64,000 bases of DNA from the NCBI GenBank assembly GCA_963844965.1, contig CAWJQC010000009.1, positions 1 through 64,000 of the forward strand, given 5' to 3'. The DNA comes from an uncultured bacterium (GTDB lineage Bacteria > Patescibacteriota > Minisyncoccia > UBA6257 > 2-01-FULL-56-20). The notes under the pieces were generated by a model. It was not told where the DNA came from. It worked only from the letters and a program-made list of their open reading frames with translations, and did no database searches. Positions 7,200 to 43,440 of this stretch are shown one piece after another; position 1 is the first letter of the stretch, and every line of letters starts with the position of its first letter. The position numbers and the translations under genes are program-made.

Positions 7200-8654
7200 A
7201 TGATTACAAAAAGACAAAAACAAATTTTAGATTTGATTACGAGCTATACCAAGAAGCATGGATTTGCTCCTTTATTAGAAGAAGTTAGAAAGCGGTTGCA
7301 CCTACGTTCAATTTCAACGGTTCACCAACATGTTGAAGCTCTCAAAAATAAAGGTTATTTGCTAAAACAAAAAAATCAACGCCGCGGTATAGAGATATCG
7401 AAGTCCGAAAAACTAGTTCAAGTGCCACTTCTCGGCACAATTGCCGCTGGTCAACCGATTGAAGCCATTGAAGATAAAGAAAATATGGTTGTGCCGCGAA
7501 ATAAACTCCCCAGAACTGGTGAAGTATATGCCCTGCGAGTACAAGGCGACAGTATGATTGACGAAAACATTCACGATGGCGACACCATTCTAGTTAAAAA
7601 ACAAAACACCGCCGAAAATGGCGACAAAGTAGTCGCGCTCCTTAATGGGAACGAAGCGACGCTTAAAACTTTTTATAAAGAAAGGGGGCAAATACGACTA
7701 CAACCAGCAAATAAAAATTATCAGCCAGTTATAGTAAAAAACGGGCAACAACTTTCTTTGCAAGGCATCCTATTTGACGTGATCCGAACAAGCGAAGCAG
7801 AACAATCAACTAAATCCTTCGTTTTGTCACCCCGAAAAGATGCCCTGCGACGAGGCAAAATCTCCGACTACCTCAATAAAGTTTACAATGGTGACATAAT
7901 GCACGTTCTAAAAAACTTGCCCGACAACAGCGTTGATATGATATTCGGAGATCCTGATTACAATGTTGGCATAAGATATGGCAGTAATAGTTATACGAGA
8001 GACTTCGATGATTATATAAATTGGTATATAGAACTTACCAAAGAATCAATGCGTGTGTTAAAAAATGACGGCAATATTTTTATGATGAACTACCCGAAGC
8101 AAAATGCACATCTCCGCGTCAAATATTTAGATTTATACTTTCCACACATTAACGAATACGTTTGGGTTTACAATACAAATGTCGGACATACACCAAAAAG
8201 GTTTACAACGGCACATAGAACCATACTCCATGTCAGAAAATGCGCTAATAATAAGTTTTACAAAGACGCCGTCGCACTTCCCTATAAAAATCCAACGGAT
8301 AGAAGAATCCGACAAAATTTAGCGAATGGCTCAAAAGGAAGAATGCCCTATTCTTGGCTTGAGTTTAATCTTGTGAAAAATGTGAGTAGAGAAAAAACTT
8401 ACCATGCCTGCCAAATCCCACAAAAACTAACCGAGATGCTAGTTAAAGCGTCAACCAAACAAGGGGATATAGTGCTAGTTCTCTTCGGTGGCAGTGGTGC
8501 GGAAATAGATGTATGTAGAAATTTAAAACGCCAGTTTATCTCCGCTGAAATAGATAAAAAATACTGCGATATTATAAACAGCCGACTTGCAAACGGCTAC
8601 ATTGATAAGCAATATCGCCTTGGACCACGAGGCAAGAAAATATCTATGGGATAA
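7200..8654 (+). CDS. fusion protein: full LexA-like repressor (HTH + S24 autopeptidase) fused in frame to a beta-class N6-adenine/N4-cytosine DNA methyltransferase
   Basis: N-terminal part: wHTH, IAAGQP (Ala-Gly cleavage site), GDSM (Ser nucleophile), TLKTF (Lys). C-terminal part: motif IV FGDPDYNVG before motif I LVLFGGSGAEID, which is the beta-class order. One continuous 484-aa ORF in about 36% GC DNA. Confidence 0.75.
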   Translation: MITKRQKQILDLITSYTKKHGFAPLLEEVRKRLHLRSISTVHQHVEALKNKGYLLKQKNQRRGIEISKSEKLVQVPLLGTIAAGQPIEAIEDKENMVVPRNKLPRTGEVYALRVQGDSMIDENIHDGDTILVKKQNTAENGDKVVALLNGNEATLKTFYKERGQIRLQPANKNYQPVIVKNGQQLSLQGILFDVIRTSEAEQSTKSFVLSPRKDALRRGKISDYLNKVYNGDIMHVLKNLPDNSVDMIFGDPDYNVGIRYGSNSYTRDFDDYINWYIELTKESMRVLKNDGNIFMMNYPKQNAHLRVKYLDLYFPHINEYVWVYNTNVGHTPKRFTTAHRTILHVRKCANNKFYKDAVALPYKNPTDRRIRQNLANGSKGRMPYSWLEFNLVKNVSREKTYHACQIPQKLTEMLVKASTKQGDIVLVLFGGSGAEIDVCRNLKRQFISAEIDKKYCDIINSRLANGYIDKQYRLGPRGKKISMG

Positions 8655-9282
8655 TCTTTCGCATACTGGCTGCGTCAAAATGATTTTCGCAAACAAGTAT
8701 AAGAGCCGCGTAAAACTTGTCGCGCCCCGCGCCCTTGCTTGTTGGCCCACCATTCCTGTTTTGTAATCTATATGGCATTGTTGAGCCGCATTCTTTCCAA
8801 GATAATTTATAGTTTAGATCCTCTTGCGCCCACATCCATTTCAGCATCTCTAAAAATTGCCGGGAATCAATACCACCGAGCTTTGGCGGTTCTTTATCAA
8901 TAGTATTATTATCATGTAGCCGTACTATCATTTTCCAAAATTTTTTATTTTTCTTTTTGTGAGTTTCAAAATCTTTTAAAAGATTTGCATAGGTAAAGCC
9001 AACCGAGCTTCCTTCATGCCCTTTTTCAAAGGGAACAACCTCAAAATCATAAAGATTTGCCCAAAGAGATGAATTTTTATTCGGCCTTTTTAATGTGCGT
9101 TGTTTTAACTTATAGCCCGGATACCGAATACCGATACGGGGTTTCGCGATAGTACCTTCCACAATAAATAAATGAGAACCAACCGGTGCGGTATGATAAG
9201 GGAGTAATTCCAGTGTTAAGTTTTTAAAAAAATTCAAACCTCCTGAAATATGTAGTTCGTGTATTTTGGTAGATTTAGACAT
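8644..9282 (-). CDS. hypothetical protein convergent with and overlapping the methyltransferase 3-prime end; candidate cognate restriction endonuclease (unverified)
   Basis: 212 aa from ATG 9282 (MSKSTKIHELHISGG...). Same AT-rich islet as the MTase. No recognisable motif beyond a possible D...E.K pattern. Confidence 0.4.
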   Translation of the reverse strand: MSKSTKIHELHISGGLNFFKNLTLELLPYHTAPVGSHLFIVEGTIAKPRIGIRYPGYKLKQRTLKRPNKNSSLWANLYDFEVVPFEKGHEGSSVGFTYANLLKDFETHKKKNKKFWKMIVRLHDNNTIDKEPPKLGGIDSRQFLEMLKWMWAQEDLNYKLSWKECGSTMPYRLQNRNGGPTSKGAGRDKFYAALILVCENHFDAASMRKIIP

Positions 9283-9287
9283 ATTAT

Positions 9288-10055
9288 TTATAAATAATTT
9301 ATTTTTTTGAGCCAGAATTCGTTTTCCCATTCCCATAGCCGTTTCGCGCCGAGGAAGGCCTCAAGGTCGCTTTGCCAATAGGGGAATTCCTTGAGTTCAA
9401 CGTCGCCTTTGAGTTCGCTCCACTCGTGCGGGCAGTCGCGCATCACCTGGTTGCCCCATTGGATTTTTACCTTCTCCCGCCCACCCTTAACTCTTTTTAT
9501 CGCGCCGCAGAGATTACAGGTCTGTATCTGGTCAATCCTTAAAATCCACCTCGTCTGAAGATTTTGGAACTGGTCCTTCAGGGCGTCCATGTAAGCCGCC
9601 GTTTGCAGATTGTAGTCGCGGTAAATTGCTTGGGAAGTTTTTATGTCCAGAACGCCGAACTTGCCGTCAAGAAGCGCCAAGGCATCAACCGTACCGGCGT
9701 AGCGGTGGTCGTAGTGCACGACACGCCGCTCCACGAGCTCCGGCGTCACCTGAATATTCCTGCCCTCAAAATATTTCAAAAATGCCGCGATTGCCGGCTT
9801 CACCGAGAGGGGAATGTCCGGATTTTTGCCGAGGAGGATGCCCTCAACCGTTTCGTGTATCAGTGTTCCTTCCTCGGCGGATTTGTGCGAAACGCTCTGC
9901 GCCGCCTTAAAATTTTCCGCCTCGCCGTAAAAACGCAAAAGCGCCGGCTTCGCCTTGATGGAGACAATTTTCGTCACGCGCGGATACCAAATGCCGTCAA
10001 TGGTATATCCGCAGGCATTTTTGAAACTTTCCGCGTCTTTGAATTCCCCGAACAT
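9288..10055 (-). CDS. RecB-family PD-(D/E)xK nuclease, Cas4/AddB-nuclease-like with 4-Cys cluster
   Basis: 255 aa. One N-terminal Cys (NACGY) and three C-terminal Cys (CNLCG...DCPHEW). VDAL...LDIKT (D...DxK) and QTAAY (QxxxY) motifs typical of Cas4/RecB nucleases. Confidence 0.55.
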   Translation of the reverse strand: MFGEFKDAESFKNACGYTIDGIWYPRVTKIVSIKAKPALLRFYGEAENFKAAQSVSHKSAEEGTLIHETVEGILLGKNPDIPLSVKPAIAAFLKYFEGRNIQVTPELVERRVVHYDHRYAGTVDALALLDGKFGVLDIKTSQAIYRDYNLQTAAYMDALKDQFQNLQTRWILRIDQIQTCNLCGAIKRVKGGREKVKIQWGNQVMRDCPHEWSELKGDVELKEFPYWQSDLEAFLGAKRLWEWENEFWLKKINYL

Positions 10056-22452: not shown

Positions 22453-23397
22453 CTATTTTTCCGTATAAACTTCTAATTTTTGCGTGTCAGCCAGGACTTC
22501 AATCGTGCCGTTCTGGTCCGTGCGGAAAACTTTGGCGGTAGTTGAGGCAATCCGTGCGAGTGTCTCTGGCGCCGGGTGTCCGTATGTATTATTCGCGCCG
22601 ACCTCAATGACCGCTATCTCCGGGTTCACCGCCTGCAAAAATTCTTCCGATGAAGAATATTTTGAACCATGATGGCCGACCTTCAAAACATCGGCGGCAA
22701 GTTCGGCGCCGTTTTCTACCAGATAGTCCTCAATATTGGAACCCGTGTCGGAAGTTAAAAGTGTCCTCAGACCGCCAGTTTTTATAAGTTCAACGAAGGC
22801 GGTGTCGTTCAGTTCCGCGCTTTGGATAAAATTTTTGTCTGGCGAAAGGAAATCAACTTCACTGCCCGAATAGTTTATCTTGTCGCCGGCACCAAGCGTT
22901 ATAAGTGGTATATTCTGCGATTTTATTTTATCTAAAAGCGTTTGCCACTCCGCGTTTAGCGGAGAATCTGAACGGCCGTTAAAGATAAAGGCGCCGAAGC
23001 GGTAATTATCCAGAAGATAGTTGAATCCGTTAAAGTGGTCCAGTTGCGGATGCGAAATTATGCCGATGTCTATATAGCGGTCGCCGCCAATGGCACGGCT
23101 CATGCTTCTGAGAACGCTTTTATCTGGTCCGGCATCGGTCAGAATTTTTACCCCCACACCAGAACGAGGATTCAATAAAAAATCGAGCGTATCAAGTATC
23201 AATCCTCGTTTGGTGTGGGGGTGAACATTGCCGGGAAAAACCGCGAGTTCTGCGTCGCCCTGGCCGACATCCAGAAAATAGATCCGCGGCTCGGAGACGG
23301 GCTTCGCGAATACGATTTCATACCAGACAAAAACCGTGAGCGCGACGAGAGAGACCGCTATTATCACACTTAATCCGCCGGTTCTTTTGTTTGTCAT
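22453..23397 (-). CDS. comEC: ComEC/Rec2 C-terminal metallo-beta-lactamase domain protein (separate ORF)
   Basis: 314 aa. N-terminal TM, YFLDVGQGDA, HPQLDHFNG, VGHHGS motifs of the ComEC MBL domain. ATGA start/stop overlap with the upstream ORF. Confidence 0.8.
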   Translation of the reverse strand: MTNKRTGGLSVIIAVSLVALTVFVWYEIVFAKPVSEPRIYFLDVGQGDAELAVFPGNVHPHTKRGLILDTLDFLLNPRSGVGVKILTDAGPDKSVLRSMSRAIGGDRYIDIGIISHPQLDHFNGFNYLLDNYRFGAFIFNGRSDSPLNAEWQTLLDKIKSQNIPLITLGAGDKINYSGSEVDFLSPDKNFIQSAELNDTAFVELIKTGGLRTLLTSDTGSNIEDYLVENGAELAADVLKVGHHGSKYSSSEEFLQAVNPEIAVIEVGANNTYGHPAPETLARIASTTAKVFRTDQNGTIEVLADTQKLEVYTEK

Positions 23398-24836
23398 GTT
23401 GGATTTTGTGTGACGGCCGCCACGGGTTTATGCGGCGAAAAATAATATATAACGACGACCAGCAATCCGTAGTAAAATATTGTGGCAAGCCAGGAATTGA
23501 AAGCAAGCGGCAGAGGCACGCTTAATTCCGCAAAAAGTTTTATGACGCCGATCTCGTAGAAAAGCAGAAGTTCCGCCAGTTTTGCGACTGCGAATCCCAG
23601 ATAAAAGTAGATTGAGCTTAGGGCGGCGAGGATGAACCCCAGAAACATCGTGAACGGCACGAAGACCATTATTAAAACGTTCGCCAGGACCGCCATTAAG
23701 GAAAACTGGCCGAAAGCCGAGATCATAAGGGGCATGACCGCGAGTTGCGCGGAAAGCGTAACGAGCGCGGTTTCTTGGAGGACCGGAGTATTTTTCGCAT
23801 CCAGCCGGAAAAGTTTCTTAAATGCGGGCGTGAGGTATGCGATCCCCAGTAAGCTCAGGAACGACAGCTGAAAACCGAGGTTGAAAACCAGGATGGTCGG
23901 GTCAACGAACGTCATGAGGAGTGCCGTAAGCGCTATTGCGTTCCTCCGGTTGTAGATACGCCCGGTTTCTCTGGCGAGAAACGCAAGGAAGGCCATGATG
24001 GCCGCGCGCACGGCCGAGGCCTCGGCGCCGACCATCAATACGAAAAGAATGATTACGGCAAGCGTAAGATAAAAAGTTTTCCGCCGCGAAAGAAAACAGC
24101 CGAAGGCGAAAGCGACCGTCCAAGCGATAATTCCTATCTTATATCCGAATTGCACGACCACGTGCGTCGTGCCGGATAAAGACATCTGCTCTTTGAATTC
24201 CTGGCTGAAACCGGAGCGCGAGCCAAGCGTGAGCCCGCCCATAAACGCGGCTTCCTCGGACGGGAGCGACTTCTGGAATTGTGAAAGCAAATAATTTTTG
24301 AAGTCAAAAAGTTTTTCCTTTAACCAAAAACCGCGGTGTTCGGCGATGATGGAAATTGTTTTCGGGAACGCGACTGTCGGCTCTTGCGCGACCGATTGCG
24401 CCGGCTCAATCATTCCTTTGATTTCAAGCAGGTCGCCGTATTTGTAATTTTCAAGTGGCGAGGTCAGAATACTTACACTTCCTTTGAGCGGTGGCTGAAG
24501 TTCCACTTCCAAACTTTGATATTTATCGTAAATCTTCGGCTCATCCGCGATTGTTGCCAAAAAGCGAACAGTCGCATTATAAGTTATATTTTCGTTCTGG
24601 TGTTTGATATTCAGATAAAAATGATAATAAAAAGCTCCCGCGAAGAGGAGCAACAACAAAAACAGGAGAAATTTCCAATATTTTAATTTCCAAACCGAAA
24701 ACAAAATCACAAATCCCGCGGTGGCTGCTACCAGAAGCACTACCGCTATATTCCATTCCAAACTCGCCGCGGCAACGCCCGCGAGAAACGCCAGCGCCCC
24801 GCCGAAAACCACATCCGCCGCGACCAAGTTTCGCAT
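23394..24836 (-). CDS. comEC: ComEC/Rec2 N-terminal membrane (competence/DUF4131) domain protein
   Basis: 480 aa polytopic membrane protein with the competence-domain region (GLTLGSRSGFSQEFKEQMSLSGTTHVV). Its stop overlaps the start of the MBL-domain ORF. Confidence 0.75.
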   Translation of the reverse strand: MRNLVAADVVFGGALAFLAGVAAASLEWNIAVVLLVAATAGFVILFSVWKLKYWKFLLFLLLLLFAGAFYYHFYLNIKHQNENITYNATVRFLATIADEPKIYDKYQSLEVELQPPLKGSVSILTSPLENYKYGDLLEIKGMIEPAQSVAQEPTVAFPKTISIIAEHRGFWLKEKLFDFKNYLLSQFQKSLPSEEAAFMGGLTLGSRSGFSQEFKEQMSLSGTTHVVVQFGYKIGIIAWTVAFAFGCFLSRRKTFYLTLAVIILFVLMVGAEASAVRAAIMAFLAFLARETGRIYNRRNAIALTALLMTFVDPTILVFNLGFQLSFLSLLGIAYLTPAFKKLFRLDAKNTPVLQETALVTLSAQLAVMPLMISAFGQFSLMAVLANVLIMVFVPFTMFLGFILAALSSIYFYLGFAVAKLAELLLFYEIGVIKLFAELSVPLPLAFNSWLATIFYYGLLVVVIYYFSPHKPVAAVTQNPT

Positions 24837-24888
24837 TGCTTATTAATACACTAACCAGGGCCTGATTGGCAAGCAAAACGCAGAGCCG

Positions 24889-25485
24889 CTAGATGTATTT
24901 GTAGGATATTTTTCCGTATTCGTCTGTTGTTTTTATTAAAACAAATTCTAGGTTTCCATTGCGGATTGTTCTCTCTATTGAGCTCTGAACTTTCTCCTCG
25001 GTCCTATTTTTTGCAGACTTAGCCATGAAAGATATTTTTTCAATATTGTCTTTGGTAGTCATGCCATGGAAAACAACAAATTCAACCGGCGAAAACAACA
25101 ATCTCACATCTTTTGGGTAGATATCTCGTTTTAGGAAAATCTTATCCATGCCTATTTTCTTTATTTGATTCACGGCCTGTCTTCTGCCCCTAAGCTTCAC
25201 CTTCCTTGTATAAATTGGCTCAACTTTTTCGTACTGCTCTTGTTTATCAGCTAAATCATTTTGTAGATCATTAAAATCCCATCCCAATAAATCAACTTGG
25301 CCTCTGTAAGAATCAAGCCTCTCTTGTTCTTCGATAATCTTACTTAATTCTGGCAATGTTACCCTTTTGCCCATTACGAAAAGGATGACGGCACTTAATT
25401 GAAAGGTCTTATTACAGCATGGGCATATACCAAACATATAATGCCGCTCTTTATAAAACAGAACCAAAAATTTTGTAATATCCAT
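24889..25485 (-). CDS. hypothetical protein, paralog A of a tandem pair: N-terminal CxxC zinc-ribbon, coiled coil, C-terminal putative PD-(D/E)xK/Hjc-like nuclease fold
   Basis: 198 aa. CPCCNKTF; C-terminal VEFVVFHG...EKISFMAKSAKN aligns with paralog B. AT-rich. Confidence 0.4.
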   Translation of the reverse strand: MDITKFLVLFYKERHYMFGICPCCNKTFQLSAVILFVMGKRVTLPELSKIIEEQERLDSYRGQVDLLGWDFNDLQNDLADKQEQYEKVEPIYTRKVKLRGRRQAVNQIKKIGMDKIFLKRDIYPKDVRLLFSPVEFVVFHGMTTKDNIEKISFMAKSAKNRTEEKVQSSIERTIRNGNLEFVLIKTTDEYGKISYKYI

Positions 25486-25486
25486 T

Positions 25487-26053
25487 TTAATAAGGTATTA
25501 AGTTGACAGTTTGTTTTCCCTCTTTGGCTTCTTTGACCCGTTCCCTTACCTGACGCTGGGTTCTATTTAGGGACTGCTGGCCTGTCTTGGCTTCAATAAA
25601 TGAAATTTTTTCAACCCTTCCCTTTTTTGTTAGTCCGCCAAAAGATATGTAATCAATTGGGTTTAATATGGCCCTACAGTCCCCTCTATCAAACCTGAAC
25701 TTGTTTAAGGCCGGTAAAATTTGGTCGAATATTTGGCCAATGTTTGTATACTTTGTAATAACTTGAACCCTCTTGGGTCTCTCTATTTTGCGATGTTTTA
25801 ATTTTTTTATTTTTTCTTTTATGTCTTCGATTTTTTTCAACCAAGTCTGCTCGTCTTTCTTTGTTTCTTCAAAACCCTTTTTGATATTATTGCGTTGCTG
25901 ATCTAATTTATTTAAAACATACCCAGGGTATGGTTTTTTTCTGATATCAAAAAGGTGGGCACTCTTCACACCAAAAGTTTCTCCGCATTTATTGCATTTA
26001 ATTGTCAGGCCCCTAACGCTCTCCAGTATTTTTATTATGTCAATTTCGTTCAC
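25487..26053 (-). CDS. hypothetical protein, paralog B: N-terminal CxxC zinc-ribbon, coiled coil, C-terminal Hjc/PD-(D/E)xK-like motif (IDYISF...IEAKTG)
   Basis: 188 aa. CNKCGETF; D-Y-I...(E)KISFIEAKT resembles Holliday-junction-resolvase/archaeal Hjc-type D...E.K catalytic arrangement. Confidence 0.4.
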   Translation of the reverse strand: MNEIDIIKILESVRGLTIKCNKCGETFGVKSAHLFDIRKKPYPGYVLNKLDQQRNNIKKGFEETKKDEQTWLKKIEDIKEKIKKLKHRKIERPKRVQVITKYTNIGQIFDQILPALNKFRFDRGDCRAILNPIDYISFGGLTKKGRVEKISFIEAKTGQQSLNRTQRQVRERVKEAKEGKQTVNLIPY

Positions 26054-26101
26054 GTTATTTATTTGCGTTTTATCCCATTGCTAAATCTTATATCCTATCG
26101 G

Positions 26102-27156: not shown

Positions 27157-29796
27157 TCAGTTCTCGCTCATATTACCAGGGCTGAGGTCGCTATTGTCCC
27201 AGCGGACGCCGTGTTCTTCGGTGACGTCAAACGGACTTTTCCCGCCGTTATTGTGCTCGTTGACATCGCCCGCGACACTACCCGTTCCTTTCGTGGCGGC
27301 ATAGTTTTCGCCGTCGTTGCCGTCAAAGTTTTTCTGCCCGCTTTCTTCTTGTTTTTTGCTTTGCGCGCCGGTTTCTCTTGGTGAAATTGCTGACCGCGGT
27401 GCAGCCGCCGGAATAACTTTCCGCAGCGAATCGCTTATCGCCTCGCGTAATCCACCGATATTCACTTCAAATTTCTGATAAATCTTCGGTTGTTGCTGCG
27501 GTTGTGGCTGGGATTGCTGTCGCGGTTGCTCGGGCCGCCACTGTGGTTGCGAATACCGATTTTCAGGTGCTTCCGCGCGCCGGTTGAGCCCGCTTCGTGA
27601 AACGGACGGGGGTGTCGGCCGCGAACGCGGCGCGCGATTGGACTCGCGTTCGGGGCGATCCGCTTCTCGCTCTCTCGTTCTGCCATATGAGCCGCCTGTC
27701 ACTCCCGGTCTCGGCTGGTCAATATTTTCGCGATAGTCTCCGCTCACATACAGGAGCGTCTGTTCACCGCCACTCCTTTTATCGTCGCGGCGGATAGTGC
27801 TCCGACTCATACCTGCCATATCTTTTCCACCAGTTTCAGTTTCCGAAATATTATCGTTTATGTTCGGAGAATCTTCTTTTTTTTTACTTTGATCGGCCCC
27901 TTCGCTGCGTTCATCAAGGGCAGCCGGCGGGGTTCTCGGTGGAGTTGTGGGCGGTGGCGCAGATTCTTTTTGATCGTTTTTCAGATTATTTCTCCGTAGC
28001 GAATCGCTTATTGCTTTGCGCAGTTCCTCAATGTTTACTTCGGTCTTGGGATGAACTTTTGGCTGAAAGATTTGCGGTCGGCTACCTGGTGTTGTTTTCG
28101 TTTCCTGAGGATAGGGTCTCGTTTCCTGCGGTTGCGGTCGCTCTGCGGTTCTCTGAGGAACGCGCGACTCCGTCGGGGCCGGTTCTCTAACCGTGTCTCC
28201 GGTCCGGAAGTTTGCGGACGGAAATCTCGCGGTCGCTGGTCCACGCGCAACAGCTCCGTCTTCGAAATAAGGACGTTTCAGCGGTACGACTTCGGGTCCG
28301 GGTCGGTTGCTTGTTGCGGCAGTTTCGCCCGCTGGCCGGAAACGTTTCAGCGGCACAATTCTCGGTTCCGGGCGGCTCGCGGGAGCGGAAGAGGCGTACG
28401 AAGAAGGCGGGCGTCGCTCCGGTGACGAACCTTGCAGGGTTTGCCGCAATGGGCGCTCATACTGGCGACTGACTTTCTCATCAACCAGGGTTTCGCTCGC
28501 GGTTTGCCATTCGCTCGCAATTTTATCTTCCACGATTTTTCTCGGCGTGCCATACTTCTGCTGGGAATTTTTTATAATGACGTCTTTGTAAACGAGAAGC
28601 GGAATTTTCTGAGGAGGCGGCGTTTCCGCCGAGAAAGGCCTGGAGGCCACGCCGTCTATCATGAGTTTTATGTAAATGTTGGCCTTCGCCAGATTCACGA
28701 GATCGTTCTGAAGAAATTCCGGCGTGAATTCCGTTTCCAGGAATTCCGCGTCCGCTCCGCCGACGCGGAAGCAAATTATGGTGCCGATGTTGCCGAAAAC
28801 AGAGTCACGCACCTTGGTGCTCTGGTCCGTCATGAGCTGCCCGATGTACTGGTGTGCCAGGATCAGGCTCAGGCGGTACTTTCTCGCTTCAGAAAGAATG
28901 TTGGCGAAAGAATCCGTGGCGAAGTTCTGGAACTCGTCAACGTAAAGGAAAAAGTCCCTTCTTTGCTCTTCGGGCATATCCACGCGCGACATAGCCGCGA
29001 GCTGCAGGCGGGTGATGACCATCGCGCCCAAAAGCGCCGAGTTGTCTTCGCCAATCCTGCCCTTGGACAAATTCGCTATGAAAATTTTTCCGCTGTCCAT
29101 AATCTCGCGCATGTTGAGCGTGGAATTCGGCTGTCCCAATATATTCCTGATCAGCGGATTTGAAATAAATTGGCCTACCTTGTTTTGAATCGCGGCCACC
29201 GCTTCGGTTTCCAGGCGCTGCGTGTAGCGGGCGAATTCGTTCACCCAGAAGGCCTTCACGACGGGATCCTTAAGGTTTTCCACTATCTTCTTGCGGTAAA
29301 CCGGTTCGGACAGCATCCTCATGATTCCCAAAAGAGTTGAACCGGGAAGTTCCAGAAGCGCGAGGAGCGTGTTGTTCAATATGTAAGCCATGCGCGCCGA
29401 CCAGACGTCAACGAATATTTTTTTGAAGACCCCCATGAGACCGGAGGCAACAAGGTGTCTGAATTCGGGATTGACCTGCTCCATCGGATTGAAGGCGACC
29501 GGATATTCCATATCGGCGGGATTGAAATAGATCACGTCATCCATCCTTTCTTCCGGCACGAAGTCCAAAACTTTTTCCGCAAGCTCGCCGTGGGGATCAA
29601 CAACCGCCAAGCCCCTGCCGGCTTTGATGTCAGCGATGGCCATATTTTCAAGAAGCGTGGTTTTGCCCACGCCGGTCTTGCCAATAAGGTAAACGTGCCT
29701 CCGGCGGTCATCAAGTTTTATGCCGAATTTCGTCCTCCGGTTCCTGAAATTGCAGAAACCCAGCGGCGCCAGATCTTTTTCGTTGTTACTATTCAT
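27157..29796 (-). CDS. TraD/VirD4/HerA-like P-loop ATPase (DUF87-type coupling-protein-like) with long C-terminal Pro/Arg/Gln/Ser-rich repetitive tail
   Basis: 879 aa. Walker A YLIGKTGVGKTT, Walker B FLYVDEFQNF, LILAHQYIGQL. The C-terminal 400 aa are low-complexity with two copies of a (K/P)x(I/K)(F/Y)Q...EVNI..LR.AISDSLR motif. Confidence 0.6.
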   Translation of the reverse strand: MNSNNEKDLAPLGFCNFRNRRTKFGIKLDDRRRHVYLIGKTGVGKTTLLENMAIADIKAGRGLAVVDPHGELAEKVLDFVPEERMDDVIYFNPADMEYPVAFNPMEQVNPEFRHLVASGLMGVFKKIFVDVWSARMAYILNNTLLALLELPGSTLLGIMRMLSEPVYRKKIVENLKDPVVKAFWVNEFARYTQRLETEAVAAIQNKVGQFISNPLIRNILGQPNSTLNMREIMDSGKIFIANLSKGRIGEDNSALLGAMVITRLQLAAMSRVDMPEEQRRDFFLYVDEFQNFATDSFANILSEARKYRLSLILAHQYIGQLMTDQSTKVRDSVFGNIGTIICFRVGGADAEFLETEFTPEFLQNDLVNLAKANIYIKLMIDGVASRPFSAETPPPQKIPLLVYKDVIIKNSQQKYGTPRKIVEDKIASEWQTASETLVDEKVSRQYERPLRQTLQGSSPERRPPSSYASSAPASRPEPRIVPLKRFRPAGETAATSNRPGPEVVPLKRPYFEDGAVARGPATARFPSANFRTGDTVREPAPTESRVPQRTAERPQPQETRPYPQETKTTPGSRPQIFQPKVHPKTEVNIEELRKAISDSLRRNNLKNDQKESAPPPTTPPRTPPAALDERSEGADQSKKKEDSPNINDNISETETGGKDMAGMSRSTIRRDDKRSGGEQTLLYVSGDYRENIDQPRPGVTGGSYGRTREREADRPERESNRAPRSRPTPPSVSRSGLNRRAEAPENRYSQPQWRPEQPRQQSQPQPQQQPKIYQKFEVNIGGLREAISDSLRKVIPAAAPRSAISPRETGAQSKKQEESGQKNFDGNDGENYAATKGTGSVAGDVNEHNNGGKSPFDVTEEHGVRWDNSDLSPGNMSEN

Positions 29797-33492: not shown

Positions 33493-34785
33493 ATTTGTTG
33501 TCTTGTCGTCTTTAATGAAGACCCTGAGGAACAGCCGCGTTGTCGTAATGGCGGAAAACAAGCTAACAAGAACGCCGATGAGGAGTGTCAGGGCGAAACC
33601 GCGAACAAAACTTGAAGTAAATTCATAGAGAATTATCGCCGTGATTATCGTGGACATGTTGGAATCGCGAATGGAGGGCCAGGCGCGCCGGAAGCCCTCT
33701 TCCATGGCGGATGTCTTTGAAAGTCCGTGTTTCAGTTCTTCTTTAATGCGTTCAAAGGTCAGGATGTTTGCGTCAACGGCCATACCGATGGTCAGGATAA
33801 ATCCGGCGAAACCGGCGAGACTTAGCGTTATTGGTATGAGTTTGAATACGCCGAGCGTGAGCGCGATATAAATAAGGAGCGCTAACGCGGCGTAAATGCC
33901 AAGCTTCCGATAGTACATGAGCATGAAAATAATTATAAGTACGGTGCCGATGATGCCGGCAATTATAACTTTGCGCAACGAGTCCGCTCCCAAGCTCGGG
34001 CTTATCGTCTGCTGATTGATAAGCGTGATCGGCGCGGGCAGCGCTCCGGCATTGAAACGCTCAACAAGTTTCTGCGCTTCGTCCACGGTGAAGCTGCCGG
34101 TAATCACGGCATGCCCTCCGGAAATCTGTTGCTGAACGACGGGGCAGGTCATAAGCTGATTGTCTATGAAAACAGGCAATGGCCTTTGAATATTTGCTCC
34201 CGTGAGATTTTCAAAAATCTTCGCGCCTTCGTCATTGAAAGTGATGGACACGCGCGGCGCGCGAGTTGTTTGGTCAAACTCCAGCTGTGCCCCCGTGACA
34301 TACCGTCCGGTCAGGTTTGTTACGACAAGAGTTGAACTTGCCGGGACGTTGCAGGCCGCGGCTATATCCGGCGGCATGGGGGCTACTTTCTCGCCCGGTG
34401 TGGGAGTTTCTATTTGTGCAAAATAAAGAAGCGGTGTTGAACCGATTTCCTTGATGGCGTCCGAAATATTCGTTACACCGGCCAGTTCCACGACGAGCTG
34501 GGCGTTGCCGCCTGACCTCGCGGTAAATATTTGCGGCTCACTCACACCAAATAAGTTCACTCTACGCTCTATCACGTCCCGCAGTCCGTTGATAACGGAA
34601 TCTTGGTCGGTAGCCGCTACTTGGGAGAGGTCAATCTGATAGACGAGGTGGCTGCCGCCGACCAAGTCCAGCCCCAGACGCCACGGCTGGTATCTGGCGC
34701 CGAGCCATTTCGGATAAACAAAAATCACGGCCGCGATAGCGACCAAAATTATGATTGTTAAAAACAAGCCCGGATTACGGCGCAT
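33481..34785 (-). CDS. secD: protein translocase subunit SecD
   Basis: 434 aa. N-terminal TM, large periplasmic domain, C-terminal six-TM bundle with LAGFAGFILTIGMAVDANIL typical of SecD. Confidence 0.85.
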   Translation of the reverse strand: MRRNPGLFLTIIILVAIAAVIFVYPKWLGARYQPWRLGLDLVGGSHLVYQIDLSQVAATDQDSVINGLRDVIERRVNLFGVSEPQIFTARSGGNAQLVVELAGVTNISDAIKEIGSTPLLYFAQIETPTPGEKVAPMPPDIAAACNVPASSTLVVTNLTGRYVTGAQLEFDQTTRAPRVSITFNDEGAKIFENLTGANIQRPLPVFIDNQLMTCPVVQQQISGGHAVITGSFTVDEAQKLVERFNAGALPAPITLINQQTISPSLGADSLRKVIIAGIIGTVLIIIFMLMYYRKLGIYAALALLIYIALTLGVFKLIPITLSLAGFAGFILTIGMAVDANILTFERIKEELKHGLSKTSAMEEGFRRAWPSIRDSNMSTIITAIILYEFTSSFVRGFALTLLIGVLVSLFSAITTTRLFLRVFIKDDKTTNPKS

Positions 34786-34917
34786 ACCCAGTAGTGAAAC
34801 TGTGATTATTTATAAATCAAGCAATTCACGACGTAATTACTAATTGCCCATGCAATAAACCGTAGATGCCGCAAAGATGTTTTCCGCCTACGGCGTCGCA
34901 GTTCTACTACTGGGCAT
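34786..34917. repeat. approx. 130-bp element bounded by imperfect inverted repeats (cccagtagtgaaac ... gttctactactggg), copy 1, abutting the secD start codon
   Basis: The same terminal motifs bound a second copy at 53882-54008 directly upstream of corA. Confidence 0.5.
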
Positions 34918-34961
34918 ATGGAAATTAGTGTAACAGCATTCTAACAAAAAGTAAACACTTG

Positions 34962-35034
34962 TACCCCCACTAGGAATCGGACCTAGGTCAACTGCTTAAA
35001 AGGCAGCTGCTCTACCACTGAGCTATGGGGGCTG
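34962..35034 (-). tRNA. tRNA-Lys (anticodon UUU)
   Basis: Reverse strand GCCCCCATAGCTCAGTGGTAGAGCAGCTGCCTTTTAAGCAGTTGACCTAGGTCCGATTCCTAGTGGGGGTA folds as a cloverleaf: 7-bp acceptor, D-arm AGCTCAGTGGTAGAGC, anticodon loop CTTTTAA, T-arm GGTCCGATTCC. CCA not encoded. Confidence 0.8.
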
Positions 35035-35156
35035 ACCTGTATTATAACTTCTAATTTGGTTATTTTCAAACAAACAGAGCCGCTCTAAGGCGGCCTGAAG
35101 TGGATAGGTTTATTTAGACATTAATTCGATGATTTTTGTAACCCTATCCCACCGCG

Positions 35157-35687
35157 TTACTTGCTATTTCTCATTCGTTTTATCACTTCGCCAAATCTTC
35201 GCTCGAACTTATTTTTTGGTACTTGGCTACTATAGTGGAGAGCATAGTCCACTTTTATCTCTTTAGAAATTCGTGGCTCAATAAACGGCCCGAAGCTCGC
35301 CTCATAAGTTCTTCTACCCAAAACTACAATGGCTTTCGGTCGTATAATTTCTATTTCTTTAAGTAGGAATGGTAACCATTTCTGTATTTCTTTCTCTGTC
35401 GGTTGTCTTGGTCTATCTCCCGCCTTAACAATGTCGGTTACATAACTCCCGGCGACACCATATTTAACCATCATTTCTTGAAGAAATTTGTCTCTGGTTG
35501 TCCTGCTGAAATTGGGGTATTTATTTCTATTAGATTTTTCTTCGGGCTTATTCATAGACGGCATCTCTGCGACAAACATAAAATTAAACCGTTCCCGTGA
35601 GTCCTTTGGCAAAAATACCCCGCTCGATTCCCGTGATGGCTTTAGTTTTTTATTAAGATTTTTTAGTTTGTCTAGCTTACTGTTCAT
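35157..35687 (-). CDS. putative uracil-DNA glycosylase superfamily protein (family 4/5-like, divergent)
   Basis: 176 aa. FVAEMPS (degenerate GE.PG-type motif A region), AIVVLGRRTY, ALHYSS (motif B-like His). Weak. Confidence 0.3.
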   Translation of the reverse strand: MNSKLDKLKNLNKKLKPSRESSGVFLPKDSRERFNFMFVAEMPSMNKPEEKSNRNKYPNFSRTTRDKFLQEMMVKYGVAGSYVTDIVKAGDRPRQPTEKEIQKWLPFLLKEIEIIRPKAIVVLGRRTYEASFGPFIEPRISKEIKVDYALHYSSQVPKNKFERRFGEVIKRMRNSK

Positions 35688-35707
35688 AGAAAAACTCTTC
35701 TATCTTT

Positions 35708-35888
35708 TCATCTTTTCGATTCACTGATTTTCTTTTTGCAATCTTTGCAAATACCAGCCATTTGTTCGTCCCAATTGCTTAAATATTTTTTACAACTTAC
35801 ACACCGATTGGTTTCGGGAGTGGGAAGATGACACTTAGGACAAGAAGACATTCCGCCATATACAGCACCGCATTTGCAATTTGGCATA
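35708..35888 (-). CDS. small zinc-ribbon protein (59 aa, two CxxC pairs plus extra Cys), not in the ORF track
   Basis: Reverse strand ATG at 35888: MPNCKCGAVYGGMSSCPKCHLPTPETNRCVSCKKYLSNWDEQMAGICKDCKKKISESKR*. Confidence 0.35.
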
Positions 35889-35935
35889 ATTTCGTATTTT
35901 TATTTTATATTTTTACTATATACGCGCGCGACCTT

Positions 35936-36493
35936 TCATCTATTTTTCCTTTCAAGACGCACAATCCACCTTATTTTTTCTTTTTCCACGTCGGTGGGTG
36001 GGTTAACAGATAAACCCTCGAGTTTTTTAGATATTAGATCTTCGGTAAGTCCGCTATTAAGTCCCTCGTCTATAATATCGGCGACTCTTTTAAACTCTGG
36101 ACGATGCGTTTTTTGATAGGCAAACAGCATGTCCGCGGCGTAATCAATAAACTTCTCACCATTAGACGAGAGAGTGCCCCCGTAATCGTCCAGTGGTAGA
36201 CCCCCCTCTTCGCTCTTTCCAGCTATATCATGCACGGTTTTGACAATCTCCTTGGCATCGGAATCGGAGAGGGCTTGGAAACGTTTTACCGCGGCATATA
36301 CTGATGTGATGATTTGATCCTCGGTAAGACCGCCGCGCAAACCCCTTCTTGCTATTCCCGAAAATACTTTCTTCGATTCGCCACCAGCTGATTGGAAAAT
36401 TTTAAATATTCCGTAAAGAAAACCAAAAATCAGCGAGAACACAACGGCGAAAAGACCGAAATCACTACCATCTTTTTTGTTTGATCCTGCCAT
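35936..36493 (-). CDS. hypothetical membrane-anchored protein with internal G(L/N)(R/S)GGLTED(Q/L)II repeats
   Basis: 185 aa, one N-terminal TM helix, repeats RGLRGGLTEDQIITSV / EGLNSGLTEDLISKKL. Confidence 0.4.
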   Translation of the reverse strand: MAGSNKKDGSDFGLFAVVFSLIFGFLYGIFKIFQSAGGESKKVFSGIARRGLRGGLTEDQIITSVYAAVKRFQALSDSDAKEIVKTVHDIAGKSEEGGLPLDDYGGTLSSNGEKFIDYAADMLFAYQKTHRPEFKRVADIIDEGLNSGLTEDLISKKLEGLSVNPPTDVEKEKIRWIVRLERKNR

Positions 36494-42817: not shown

Positions 42818-43437
42818 TATTTTTTATTGCTTAATTCTTTGAAAATACCCAGGACCTTTTTATAGTTCATTCTCTTCGGGCCGATAGCCAAAAGAAGAAC
42901 GCCGCCGCCGTTTGCCCCGTAGCTTCCCGAGATGACCGCCAAATCCCCACTTTTCGTCACCGGACTTTTCCTACCGATAAAGACCTGCGGCTCGGCGGAT
43001 TTTTTTAATTTTTTCTCCGCTCTGCCCAGTCGCTCGTCAAGCTCCGCGAAGTCGCGGACAATTTCTTTGATCGCGTCCGGCGTTTCCCACTCCGGCCGTT
43101 CCACGAGATTTTCAATCCCCTCTTTGTATATCTCGCCGCCTCCGCTCGCGACGCCCAAAAGTTCAAGTTCGTCCGAAAGGAATTCCGCGAGTCCCGCCAA
43201 GGCGTGCCTCGCGAACAAATTCCTCACGGACCACAAACCAAAAAACGATTCCTCCTCGGCAAGAATCCGATTGGCGAAAAATTCGTAACCGGCGTCGCTC
43301 GGGACCCTGCCGGCGGAGTGGTGTGGCTGTTCCAAAAACCCTTCGTTGGATAATTTCTCCAGTTCCAGCCGTATCATCGCCGGTTTAATGCCAAAATCGC
43401 AATGTTCGTAAAGCCAGCCGGAACTTATCGGCTCGTC
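42817..43437 (-). CDS. hrcA: heat-inducible repressor HrcA, 5-prime truncated (N-terminal winged-helix lost at the junction with the GC-rich block)
   Basis: The frame is open to 43485, but HrcA-like sequence (..SSGWLYEHCDFGIKPAMIRLELEKLSNEGFLEQPHHSAGRVPSDAGYEF..) ends at about 43440 where composition switches. About 30-50 N-terminal residues are absent. Confidence 0.6.
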   Translation of the reverse strand, partial: DEPISSGWLYEHCDFGIKPAMIRLELEKLSNEGFLEQPHHSAGRVPSDAGYEFFANRILAEEESFFGLWSVRNLFARHALAGLAEFLSDELELLGVASGGGEIYKEGIENLVERPEWETPDAIKEIVRDFAELDERLGRAEKKLKKSAEPQVFIGRKSPVTKSGDLAVISGSYGANGGGVLLLAIGPKRMNYKKVLGIFKELSNKK

Positions 43438-43440
43438 TGA

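What the first reader, a model, noticed from the sequence alone, without database searches (positions are those of the whole stretch)
24889..26053. Tandem paralogous pair of Zn-ribbon + coiled-coil + Hjc/PD-(D/E)xK-like proteins next to split comEC
- Two adjacent ORFs (198 and 188 aa) share architecture: N-terminal CxxC...(C) ribbon, a charged coiled-coil middle, and a C-terminal block (IDYISFGG...EKISFIEAKTG / VEFVVFHG...EKISFMAKSAK) resembling the D...E.K core of Holliday-junction-resolvase/restriction-endonuclease-fold nucleases.
- They sit in an AT-rich patch between comEC and trmD, upstream of a TraD-like ATPase.
- They may be an uncharacterised nuclease pair acting on incoming or branched DNA (competence or defence related).
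Basis: inference. Interest (0 to 1): 0.55.

Follow-up and report, generated by a model that had tools for sequence, protein, structure and literature searches.

The report
Active/inactive nuclease pair, defence-island cassette
Two adjacent small genes encode an intact nuclease and a catalytically dead copy of it that probably zip together through a coiled coil, and this imported two-gene cassette sits among anti-virus genes in many uncultured microbes, so it is a plausible new defence module rather than a DNA-uptake factor.

Summary
Two co-directional ORFs, A (25487-26053, 188 aa) and B (24889-25485, 198 aa), are paralogs (27% identity, E=8e-11). Both belong to Pfam PF10107/COG4741 (Endonuc_Holl), a known, computationally predicted PD-(D/E)xK family with no characterised member found here.

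What is new is the organisation:
- A->B is a fixed, translationally coupled two-gene module, present in 77 of 77 assessable metagenomic loci and in MAGs of five phyla plus viral contigs.
- A keeps E/D...D...(E/D)xK in 43 of 43 dereplicated pairs. B keeps the catalytic Lys in only 4 of 43. The window's B has E135, A155 and S157 at the D, E and K positions.
- B is nevertheless under purifying selection (dN/dS 0.24).
- Each protein has only one CxxC knuckle, which is half a zinc ribbon.
- The CxxC-to-active-site spacing changes in heptad steps (88, 96, 103, 110) in lockstep in A and B (r=0.996) after a single ancient duplication. This argues for a parallel A/B coiled-coil heteromer.

The comEC/trmD/TraD neighbourhood is not conserved. 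The pair is the lowest-GC segment of the window (35.8% vs 50%), so it is an imported cassette. Elsewhere it lies beside Gabija/Old, SIR2-HerA, GmrSD, Mrr and type I R-M genes.

Verdict: a new variant of a known nuclease family and a candidate defence module. Its activity and target are untested.

The parts
25487..26053 (-). Gene A: 188-aa catalytic subunit (CxxC knuckle, coiled coil, minimal PD-(D/E)xK domain), GTG start
   Evidence: ORF. PF10107 E=4.4e-18. Catalytic D110/D134/E154/K156 occupy columns that are invariant in the A lineage. dN/dS 0.20 against the L001 ortholog.
25985..25996 (-). A Cys knuckle C20-N-K-C23 (single CxxC, half a zinc ribbon)
   Evidence: Sequence. Conserved in all paired A proteins. 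AF2 places it on a beta-hairpin, strands 17-19 and 26-28.
25754..25924 (-). A coiled-coil helix (residues 44-100)
   Evidence: AF2 helix 44-100 with pLDDT up to 91. Hydrophobic period 3.5, reached by 3 of 1000 shuffles.
25523..25744 (-). A nuclease core (residues 104-177): helix 1 with D110, D125-C-R127, P-I-D134-Y, F-I-E154-A-K156-T-G
   Evidence: Alignments. Column statistics. Secondary-structure order a-b-b-b-a. VRR_NUC secondary hits in 6 of 28 lineage members.
25483..25489 (-). Gene junction TAA-A-ATG (1-nt spacer): translational coupling of A and B
   Evidence: Sequence. Across 33 dereplicated pairs the junction is a 4-nt overlap in 16, and nearly all others lie within -49 to +20 nt.
24889..25485 (-). 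Gene B: 198-aa catalytically degenerate paralog (CPCC knuckle, coiled coil, pseudo-nuclease domain, C-terminal extension)
   Evidence: ORF. PF10107 E=6.4e-8. E135/A155/S157 at the D/E/K columns and Lys at the helix-1 acid column. dN/dS 0.24. The B lineage is monophyletic in 50 of 50 bootstraps.
25414..25425 (-). B Cys knuckle C21-P-C23-C24
   Evidence: Sequence. The first Cys is present in 132 of 134 B N-termini, so it is better conserved than any catalytic position.
25225..25344 (-). B coiled-coil helix (residues 48-87)
   Evidence: AF2 helix 48-87 at low confidence. The family-averaged hydrophobicity peaks at period 3.5, reached by 2 of 2000 shuffles. The single sequence alone is not significant, at 117 of 1000.
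24892..25191 (-). B pseudo-nuclease domain (residues 99-176) plus lineage-specific C-terminal extension (177-198, 'GNLEFVLIK...GKISY')
   Evidence: Alignments. Nearly invariant B-lineage positions G100, R101, A104, D126, R128, P133, G141, G177, F181, G191.
24880..26100 (.). Low-GC cassette (about 36% GC) inserted between trmD and comEC
   Evidence: GC 35.8% against a window mean of 50.4%, the 0.16 percentile, with GC3 0.38 against 0.50-0.64 in flanking genes. The boundaries coincide with the gene ends. No flanking repeats.

Best explanation
A and B are the two subunits of one asymmetric nuclease, carried on a horizontally mobile two-gene cassette that usually resides in defence islands.

Shown:
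- Both are PF10107 proteins that arose by one ancient duplication.
- They are always encoded A then B with coupled translation.
- A retains the full E/D...D...(E/D)xK site. B has lost it in most lineages, including this one, yet it is under purifying selection and keeps its Cys knuckle and fold.
- The number of residues between the Cys knuckle and the (pseudo)active site changes by one heptad at a time, in lockstep in both partners.

Inferred:
- The two helices form a parallel, in-register heterodimeric coiled coil. This brings the two single CxxC knuckles together at one end, possibly sharing one Zn through four Cys contributed in trans. It also brings the two PD-(D/E)xK-fold domains together at the other end, as an Hjc-like dimer with a single active site.
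- Such an enzyme would nick, or cut one strand of, a DNA structure rather than make the paired cuts of a homodimeric resolvase. B would supply DNA binding, positioning or regulation.
- From its genomic company, the module most likely acts on invading DNA (phage or plasmid). In this small-genome bacterium it is a recently acquired cassette that is transcriptionally embedded between trmD and comEC by accident of insertion.
For: Family and paralogy:
- BLASTP and Pfam results.
- The published fold assignment of COG4741/PF10107 (PMC1189080, PMC3424549).
- VRR_NUC secondary hits and in-register alignment of the motif with YraN (weak).

Obligate pairing:
- An A gene lies directly upstream of B in 77 of 80 metagenomic loci retrieved with a B-only pattern. 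In the other 3, B starts within 175 nt of the contig edge.
- The same arrangement occurs in MAGs of a CPR-like bacterium, Omnitrophota, Aminicenantes, Bacteroidetes and Woesearchaeota, and in viral contigs.
- No third gene is conserved.
- The junction is a 4-nt overlap in 16 of 33 pairs, and a 1-nt gap here.

Asymmetry:
- A keeps D, (E/D) and K in 43 of 43 pairs. B keeps K in 4 of 43 and has K/R at the helix-1 acid position in most.
- Both genes are under purifying selection: dN/dS 0.20 for A and 0.24 for B.

Heteromer:
- Spacing classes (A/B) are 88-90/87-88, 96/95, 103/102 and 110-111/109-111, with r=0.996 for n=41.
- A and B are reciprocally monophyletic with mirrored topology, and the length series is nested the same way in both.
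- Both helices show 3.5-residue periodicity.

Mobility: lowest GC in the window, and likewise low in L001 and L002.

Defence context:
- L002: Gabija-like pair plus HEPN and PIN.
- L031: PstI-type RE and Ymh.
- L036: TerB, BrxCD-like ATPase, DEAD helicase, DUF2779 and Mrr.
- L037 and L027: GmrSD and an HD-dNTPase.
- L028: SIR2-HerA and a type I R subunit.
- L030: DndB/GIY-YIG, GmrSD and a PLD restriction enzyme.
- L119: SIR2-HerA. L050 and L101: Old-like proteins. Wadjet and WYL genes occur in other loci.
Against: - No biochemical or structural evidence exists for any member found here.
- No heterodimer model could be computed. The interaction, the parallel orientation and the shared Zn site are all inferences.
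- PADLOC has no model for either protein, and defence-island residence is only correlative.
- In this window and in the closest relative (L001) the neighbours are not defence genes.
- In phage-like contigs the pair sits in a replication and DNA-modification module. There B often keeps D...DxK (L005, L009, L010), which fits a role in the element's own DNA metabolism.
- Only four length classes exist, so the lockstep evidence amounts to about three coordinated events.
Confidence: 0.55

Rival explanations
1. Toxin/antidote (abortive-infection-like) pair. A is a toxic nuclease that needs A-A homodimerisation. B is a dead decoy subunit that sequesters A in an inactive A/B heterodimer until infection removes or displaces B.
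For: - Same facts as the main model: obligate pairing, coupled translation, an inactive B under selection and matched helix lengths.
- Defence-island residence.
- Related active singletons with a CxxC (for example P0027, 240 aa) exist without a partner, so A-type proteins can presumably self-associate.
Against: - The gene order, active partner first and overlapping the second, is the reverse of most type II toxin-antitoxin operons (general knowledge).
- In some clades B keeps a full D...DxK site (L005, L009, L010, L030), which a pure inhibitor would not need.
- B conserves basic and surface motifs of the nuclease domain such as GRRQA and D-x-R, which suggests substrate contact.
Confidence: 0.15
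2. A structure-specific DNA repair or recombination endonuclease (Holliday-junction, flap or fork cutter). It would serve the replication or maintenance of the host or of the mobile element that carries it, not defence.
For: - The Pfam family is named for its relation to archaeal Hjc.
- In phage-like contigs the pair lies between dUTPase, a DenV-like glycosylase, SNase, DNA methyltransferases and a family B DNA polymerase. In L020 it lies beside an HhH-GPD glycosylase.
- Canonical family members occur on Sulfolobales conjugative plasmids.
- A heterodimer with one active and one dead subunit is how XPF-ERCC1 and Mus81-Eme1 are built (general knowledge).
Against: - The distribution is sporadic, with only 6 loci in one genome each of 185,579 species using a clade-specific pattern.
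- The cassette is compositionally foreign.
- Its neighbours vary and are dominated by restriction and abortive-infection genes in cellular genomes. None of this is typical of a housekeeping repair enzyme.
Confidence: 0.17
3. A competence-linked nuclease working with ComEC on incoming DNA, as the first reader suggested on the basis of adjacency.
For: In this window the pair lies 52 nt upstream of comEC on the same strand, with no terminator in between.
Against: - comEC is next to the pair in no other locus examined, which covers more than 25 independent neighbourhoods, including the 86%/79%-identical ortholog pair in L001.
- The pair's GC is 14 points below that of comEC and trmD, so the juxtaposition is a recent insertion.
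Confidence: 0.03
4. Two independent homodimeric proteins (A2 and B2) that are merely co-inherited, with no physical A/B complex.
For: Hjc-type nucleases are homodimers (general knowledge). No direct interaction evidence was obtained here.
Against: - Independent homodimers would not need equal helix lengths. Yet three successive one-heptad changes occurred in both lineages and the spacings stay within 0-3 residues.
- The gene order and overlap are invariant.
- A B2 dimer with no active site has no obvious function.
Confidence: 0.07

Closest known systems
Pfam PF10107 / COG4741 'Endonuc_Holl' canonical members (for example the 212-aa 'Holliday junction resolvase-like protein' WP_238817693.1 of Acidianus plasmid pAH1)
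   Same: - The same family by HMM.
- The same coiled coil followed by a minimal nuclease domain with E...(V/I)D...E(V/I)K.
- Likewise uncharacterised experimentally.
   Different: - Canonical members are singletons with an N-terminal transmembrane helix.
- Here the helix is replaced by a soluble CxxC knuckle.
- The gene is duplicated into a fixed A/B pair, and one copy has lost the active site.
Archaeal Hjc, bacterial YraN (PF02021) and VRR-NUC minimal PD-(D/E)xK nucleases
   Same: A minimal a-bbb-a core with D and ExK on adjacent strands. The motif aligns in register with E. coli YraN, and 6 of 28 members give weak VRR_NUC hits.
   Different: - Those enzymes act as symmetric homodimers without a coiled coil or Cys knuckle (general knowledge).
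- The similarity found here is weak (hhalign P=0.019), and no structural match could be obtained.
XPF-ERCC1 and Mus81-Eme1 (eukaryotic structure-specific endonucleases)
   Same: The same working principle. A homodimeric ancestor was duplicated into a heterodimer of one catalytic and one catalytically dead paralog of the same nuclease fold, giving a single active site (general knowledge; analogy only).
   Different: No detectable sequence relationship. The dimerisation device differs (HhH2 domains rather than a coiled coil plus Cys knuckles). Those proteins are eukaryotic repair factors, not mobile prokaryotic cassettes.
Rad50 zinc hook / CD4-Lck zinc clasp
   Same: One CxxC (or CxC) from each of two chains could jointly bind one Zn next to a coiled coil. 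This is inferred here from each subunit having a single conserved knuckle (general knowledge for the precedents).
   Different: - The Rad50 hook sits at the apex of an antiparallel intramolecular coiled coil and joins two identical chains.
- Here the knuckles are N-terminal, the coil is inferred to be parallel, and the partners are different.
- Metal binding is untested.
CoCoNuTs (coiled-coil nuclease tandems), a type IV restriction subclass (PMC11090510)
   Same: Defence-island systems that combine coiled coils, CPxC zinc-binding motifs and PD-(D/E)xK domains. In several subtypes those domains are inactivated but retained.
   Different: - CoCoNuTs are built on McrB GTPase and McrC (DUF2357) homologs with helicases and HEPN domains.
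- None of those is present here, and the paper does not mention Hjc-like or PF10107 proteins.
Heterodimeric restriction endonucleases and nickase pairs such as BbvCI
   Same: Two paralogous PD-(D/E)xK subunits encoded side by side that act as one enzyme. Inactivating one subunit yields a nickase (general knowledge).
   Different: In BbvCI both subunits are naturally active and a cognate methyltransferase is present. No methyltransferase is linked to the A/B pair in cellular loci.

Membership tests
Pfam PF10107 (Endonuc_Holl) / COG4741 | Whole-protein HMM score above the curated gathering threshold (23.8 bits) | tested here: met
   A scores 66.0 bits (E=4.4e-18) and B scores 33.0 bits (E=6.4e-8). 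All 28 active-lineage relatives match, with best E=6e-49.
Pfam PF10107 (Endonuc_Holl) / COG4741 | Conserved E-(V/I)D-E(V/I)K catalytic motif (PMC1189080) | tested here: met
   Met for A: D110, I-D134, E154-A-K156, in columns that are invariant in 43 of 43 pairs. Not met for B (K, V-E135, A155-K-S157), which is a degenerate member.
Pfam PF10107 (Endonuc_Holl) / COG4741 | N-terminal hydrophobic (transmembrane or leader) helix, as described for the family (PMC1189080) | tested here: not met
   Neither protein has a hydrophobic N-terminal segment (maximum 19-residue Kyte-Doolittle mean 0.49 for A and about 1.5 for B). A CxxC knuckle takes its place. This feature is descriptive of typical members and is not part of the Pfam model match (profile positions 18-151).
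PD-(D/E)xK phosphodiesterase superfamily | a-b-b-b-a-b core fold with the acidic residues and Lys on strands 2 and 3 | tested here: inconclusive
PD-(D/E)xK phosphodiesterase superfamily | Profile-level similarity to an established member family | tested here: inconclusive
   VRR_NUC is a secondary hit in 6 of 28 members, best E=3.9e-4. hhalign against E. coli YraN aligns D and ExK/R in register, but P=0.019 and probability is 2.5%. The literature reports P about 1e-5 to YraN and lists PF10107 in the superfamily.
Holliday junction resolvase (Hjc-type, functional class) | Symmetric homodimer with two active sites making paired nicks in four-way junctions | tested here: not met
   The window's pair offers only one intact active site per A/B unit. 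Junction cleavage itself cannot be tested with these tools.
Zinc ribbon | Two CxxC (or equivalent) knuckles in one chain supplying four Zn ligands | tested here: not met
   There is one knuckle per chain and no second conserved Cys/His pair in A or B. The third Cys of B's CPCC is variable across the lineage.
Known anti-phage defence systems (PADLOC-DB v2.0.0) | Match to a curated defence-protein model | tested here: not met
   B has no hit, and A has only a noise hit at E=0.41. Neighbours in other loci do match Old, GajA, HerA and others.
Defence-island resident (candidate defence gene) | Recurrent location next to diverse known defence genes in unrelated genomes | tested here: met
   At least 9 independent loci qualify: L002, L031, L036, L027/L037, L028, L030, L050, L101 and L119. 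No background control was run. The window itself and L001 are exceptions.
Type II toxin-antitoxin module | Small labile antitoxin that neutralises a toxin; toxicity of the toxin alone | not testable with these tools
   Only the gene order (active partner first) and the retention of an intact site in some B proteins could be examined.

The most novel reading that the evidence does not exclude
The A/B cassette is a previously unrecognised stand-alone anti-phage/anti-plasmid system. Its effector is an asymmetric Hjc-like heterodimer with one live and one dead PD-(D/E)xK domain. An intermolecular four-Cys zinc clasp holds the two chains in register, and a coiled coil of quantised (heptad-stepped) length acts as a rigid spacer, or 'ruler', between a sensing or binding end and the cutting end. 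The membrane-anchored singletons of the same family would then be the ancestral form of a broader, unstudied class of coiled-coil nucleases guarding against incoming DNA.
Probability: 0.25. Interest if true: 0.7.

Novelty: new variant of a known kind. Interest (0 to 1): 0.55.

Why it matters
PF10107/COG4741 has been a 'predicted secreted endonuclease' in the databases since 2005 with no experimental follow-up that I could find. This analysis shows that a large soluble branch of it exists only as a fixed pair of an active nuclease and a dead paralog. There are hundreds of representatives, almost all from uncultured bacteria, archaea and their viruses.

The sequence record also contains an unusually clean signature of physical coupling: heptad-by-heptad co-variation of helix length. 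If confirmed, this would have three consequences:
1. It would add a compact (about 1.2 kb) two-gene candidate to the catalogue of defence systems.
2. It would give a prokaryotic parallel to the XPF-ERCC1/Mus81-Eme1 route from symmetric to asymmetric nucleases.
3. It would provide a natural single-active-site, structure- or strand-specific nuclease scaffold.

For annotation, it corrects two easy mistakes: calling both genes 'Holliday junction resolvases', and linking them to competence because of comEC.

Tried and rejected
- **PDB sequence searches:** phmmer and profile searches found no solved relative.
- **Other family libraries:** NCBIfam, PHROGs and PADLOC gave no meaningful family for either protein.
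- **First word-indexed homolog searches:** these found only 2 and 5 relatives. An alignment query, the exhaustive representative search and pattern scans were needed.
- **Genome scan with the mixed A+B alignment:** it failed for lack of a conserved stretch and was repeated with a B-only alignment.
- **tblastn against cultured phage genomes and PLSDB plasmids:** B gave no match and A gave no match in phages. A only hit transmembrane-type singletons on two Sulfolobales plasmids.
- **Search for a conserved third gene:** none across unrelated loci.
- **Search for insertion scars or att-like repeats around the low-GC cassette:** only chance-level short repeats.
- **Promoter and terminator scan:** no more sites than in shuffled sequence, and no terminator between trmD, A, B and comEC.
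- **Tree building:** the first run timed out. The second was invalid because of NaN distances and is disregarded. The corrected run is.
- **Single-sequence heptad test for B:** not significant (117 of 1000). Only the family profile is significant.
- **Exact look-up of the window's own A protein:** not on record in the contig index.
- **Link to the TraD-like ATPase:** considered and set aside. A homolog lies 5.5 kb from the pair in L027, and DUF87 ATPases flank the pAH1 singleton. The association is absent from the other loci.
Full report
**1. What is there**

On the minus strand the window has two ORFs:
- A: 25487-26053, 188 aa, GTG start.
- B: 24889-25485, 198 aa, ATG start.

A's TAA stop and B's ATG are separated by a single nucleotide. 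The surrounding gene order is trmD (stop at 26102), 45 nt, A, 1 nt, B, 52 nt, then comEC. The comEC gene is itself split into a Competence/DUF4131 ORF and a metallo-beta-lactamase ORF that overlap by 4 nt. No terminator-like site separates these genes.

A and B are paralogs: 27% identity over 162 residues, E=8e-11. Both pass the gathering threshold of Pfam PF10107, 'Endonuclease related to archaeal Holliday junction resolvase' (A 66 bits, B 33 bits).

**2. What the family is**

PF10107 corresponds to COG4741. It was assigned to the PD-(D/E)xK superfamily by profile methods in 2005, and listed again in 2012. The description was a minimal core of four strands and two helices carrying E-(V/I)D-E(V/I)K, normally preceded by a hydrophobic N-terminal helix, hence 'predicted secreted endonuclease' (PMC1189080, PMC3424549).

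I found no experimental study of any member and no solved relative by sequence. The exhaustive HMM search finds 2,229 cluster representatives at E<=1e-3.

A canonical annotated example is the 212-aa protein of the Acidianus plasmid pAH1. It is a singleton with a transmembrane helix, a coiled coil and an intact GEE...PVDY...IEVKSG motif.

My own fold tests were inconclusive:
- The AF2 models had pLDDT 65 (A) and 49 (B). The secondary-structure order was right (knuckle hairpin, long helix, a-bbb-a), but the nuclease part was unreliable.
- Weak support comes from VRR_NUC secondary hits in 6 of 28 members, and from an in-register but statistically weak hhalign match to E. coli YraN (P=0.019).

**3. 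The pair is a fixed two-gene module**

Homologs of B always have an A-type gene directly upstream on the same strand. This holds in:
- a related 888-kb MAG chromosome (L001/L025);
- Omnitrophota, Aminicenantes, Bacteroidetes and Sphingobacteriaceae MAGs;
- a Woesearchaeote MAG;
- several IMG/VR viral contigs.

A metagenome scan with a B-specific peptide pattern confirmed 306 relatives. Of the 80 loci retrieved, 77 have A immediately upstream. In the remaining three, B starts within 175 nt of the contig edge.

Among 33 dereplicated pairs the A-stop/B-start junction is a 4-nt overlap in 16. Almost all others lie within -49 to +20 nt.

An all-against-all comparison of neighbourhoods found no third gene shared across unrelated loci.

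**4. One live and one dead subunit**

In hmmalign-mapped columns, the two classes differ as follows:

| Position | A class (n=50) | B class (n=162) |
|---|---|---|
| Helix-1 acidic residue | E or D in 49 of 50 | Lys/Arg in 103 of 162 |
| Catalytic D | 50 of 50 | 91 of 162 |
| (E/D) of ExK | 50 of 50 | 79 of 162 |
| K of ExK | 50 of 50 | 41 of 162 |
| First Cys of CxxC | 30 of 30 N-termini where present | 132 of 134 N-termini present |

In 43 pairs dereplicated at 70% identity, A is intact in 43 of 43. B keeps the Lys in only 4: three phage-like contigs and the archaeal MAG.

The window's A has D110, D134, E154 and K156. The window's B has K, E135, A155 and S157 at the same columns. It also has a 9-residue deletion around helix 1 and a 20-residue C-terminal extension typical of its lineage.

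B is not decaying. Against the L001 orthologs, dN/dS is 0.20 for A and 0.24 for B. The B lineage also keeps its own set of nearly invariant residues.

**5. Evidence that A and B work as one molecule**

Each protein has a single CxxC and no second ligand pair, so neither has a complete zinc ribbon.

Both have a long helix with 3.5-residue hydrophobic periodicity:
- A: 3 of 1000 shuffles reach the observed power.
- B family profile: 2 of 2000.
- B single sequence: not significant.

The number of residues from the second Cys to the catalytic-D column falls into four classes. A and B of the same locus always share the class (r=0.996, n=41):

| Class | A spacing | B spacing |
|---|---|---|
| 1 | 88-90 | 87-88 |
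| 2 | 96 | 95 |
| 3 | 103 | 102 |
| 4 | 110-111 | 109-111 |

The steps are 7-8 residues, which is one heptad.

This is not shared ancestry within each class. In a neighbour-joining tree rooted on transmembrane singletons:
- A and B are each monophyletic (B in 50 of 50 bootstraps, A in 27 of 50).
- The two clades have mirrored topology.
- The 88->96->103->110 series is nested the same way in both.
- A-to-A and B-to-B identities across length classes (34% and 30%) exceed A-to-B identities within a class (about 20%).

So after one ancient duplication, both partners gained heptads in step. Together with the coupled translation, this is best explained by a parallel, in-register A/B coiled coil. It would place the two knuckles together at one end and the two nuclease-fold domains together at the other.

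A shared four-Cys zinc site formed in trans (compare the Rad50 hook and the CD4-Lck clasp) is an attractive inference, but it is untested.

**6. Where it lives**

The comEC/trmD/TraD setting is particular to this window.

The pair is 35.8% GC in a 50.4% window. That is the lowest 1165-nt segment (0.16 percentile), with GC3 at 0.38 against 0.50-0.64 in the flanking genes. The drop coincides with the gene borders, and no flanking repeats were found.

The orthologous pair in L001 is also 36% GC, against 55-57% for its surroundings. There it sits between a 1698-aa protein and superoxide dismutase.

Elsewhere the neighbours are overwhelmingly defence genes:

| Locus | Neighbours |
|---|---|
| L002 | Gabija-like GajA/GajB, HEPN, PIN, ResIII |
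| L031 | PstI-type REase, Ymh/Abi-like, S24/HTH |
| L036 | TerB, BrxC/D-like ATPase, DEAD helicase, DUF2779, Mrr |
| L037, L027 | GmrSD, HD-dNTPase |
| L028 | IS3 integrase, SIR2-HerA, type I R subunit |
| L030 | DndB/GIY-YIG, GmrSD, PLD REase |
| L119 | SIR2-HerA |
| L050, L101 | Old-like ATPase-nucleases |
| Further loci | Wadjet, WYL, DUF2779, C5 methylase |

In a set of syntenic phage-like contigs the pair instead sits in the nucleotide-metabolism and replication block. That block contains RNR, dUTPase, a DenV-like glycosylase, SNase, several DNA methyltransferases and PolB.

PADLOC has no model for A or B. Neither protein is found in cultured phage genomes, and the pair is absent from PLSDB plasmids.

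**7. Most likely mechanism and rivals**

I favour the following, with confidence about 0.55 for the whole statement:
- an A/B heteromeric nuclease with a single active site;
- carried on a mobile cassette;
- acting on invading or branched DNA as part of the defence repertoire.

My confidence in the components differs:

| Component | Confidence |
|---|---|
| Family membership | about 0.95 |
| Dead B in this clade | about 0.85 |
| Hetero-association | about 0.75 |
| Trans zinc site | about 0.4 |
| Defence role | about 0.55 |

The rivals are:
- a toxin/decoy arrangement in which B restrains A (0.15);
- a repair or recombination nuclease serving the host or the element's own DNA metabolism (0.17), favoured by the phage contexts and by B proteins that keep D...DxK;
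- independent homodimers (0.07);
- a competence role (0.03).

**8. Comparison and novelty**

The domain family is known and would be annotated automatically.

I could not find the following described anywhere:
- the soluble CxxC branch;
- its obligate A/B organisation;
- the systematic death of B's active site;
- the heptad-locked helix lengths;
- the defence-island habitat.

It works like XPF-ERCC1 or Mus81-Eme1 (live/dead paralog heterodimers) and superficially resembles CoCoNuT systems (coiled coils, CPxC motifs, inactivated PD-(D/E)xK domains). It is a member of neither.

I rate it a new variant of a known kind, with moderate interest (0.55). It is a well-defined, compact and testable candidate, but one among many uncharacterised defence-island modules, and there is no functional evidence yet.

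Noticed in passing
window 7200-8654 (+), with convergent ORF 8644-9336 (-): A 484-aa protein fuses a complete LexA (LexA_DNA_bind plus Peptidase_S24) to an N6/N4 DNA methyltransferase. It lies in another low-GC (38-40%) patch. The convergent 230-aa ORF has no Pfam match and could be a cognate restriction enzyme. An SOS-repressor/methylase fusion is unusual.
   Followed up: partly
window 43000-51000: This block is 58-65% GC in a roughly 50% GC window. Its long plus-strand ORFs (45690-46892, 46899-47834, 47831-49132, 48888-50048, 50246-51223) have no Pfam match. It could be foreign DNA, a giant or repetitive gene, or an assembly chimera; this is unresolved.
   Followed up: partly
window 22453-24836 (-): ComEC is encoded as two ORFs that overlap by 4 nt (23394-23397). 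One is a Competence+DUF4131 membrane part (480 aa) and the other a metallo-beta-lactamase part (314 aa). Whether this is a genuine split or a frameshift was not determined.
   Followed up: partly
window 27157-29796 (-); L027 14323-16758: The TrwB/TraD-like coupling ATPase (879 aa) carries a C-terminal tail of roughly 500 aa that is low-complexity and rich in P, S, R and Q. A homolog lies 5.5 kb from the A/B pair in the Aminicenantes MAG locus L027, and DUF87 ATPases flank the family singleton on plasmid pAH1. This may hint at conjugative-element carriage, but it is not seen in other loci.
   Followed up: partly
window 34700-36200; ORF 35157-35687 (-): A third low-GC patch (about 39%) contains a uracil-DNA-glycosylase-superfamily ORF and a 185-aa ORF without a Pfam match.
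   Followed up: no
L005, L007, L008, L009, L010 (IMG/VR contigs); L030: In a syntenic group of phage-like contigs, and in the Woesearchaeote MAG, the B subunit keeps a complete D...DxK site. Both subunits may therefore be active there, unlike in most cellular pairs.
   Followed up: partly
L008 10471-11103; L010 3808-4039; L103 and L117 (about 600-nt gaps): In a few loci one or two small ORFs are inserted between A and B, which breaks the usual overlap. Their identity was not examined.
   Followed up: no
L035 10001-10723 (P0027) and representatives P0044, P0050, P0052, P0081, P0086, P0090, P0174: These 236-250-aa family members have a CxxC knuckle, a much longer spacer (129-151 residues) and an intact active site. 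P0027 is a singleton in a non-defence context. They may be the homodimeric ancestral form of the soluble branch.
   Followed up: partly
L055 1988-2404 (-): A second, unpaired A-type family member lies on the opposite strand, 7 kb from the A/B pair in the same contig.
   Followed up: no
L028 9083-13713 and L119 4487-7636: A SIR2-HerA defence system lies directly beside the A/B pair in two unrelated loci. In L119 it is co-directional with a 290-nt gap. Old/GajA-type ATPase-nucleases are adjacent in three loci (L002, L050, L101). This could be simple island co-residence or a functional link.
   Followed up: partly
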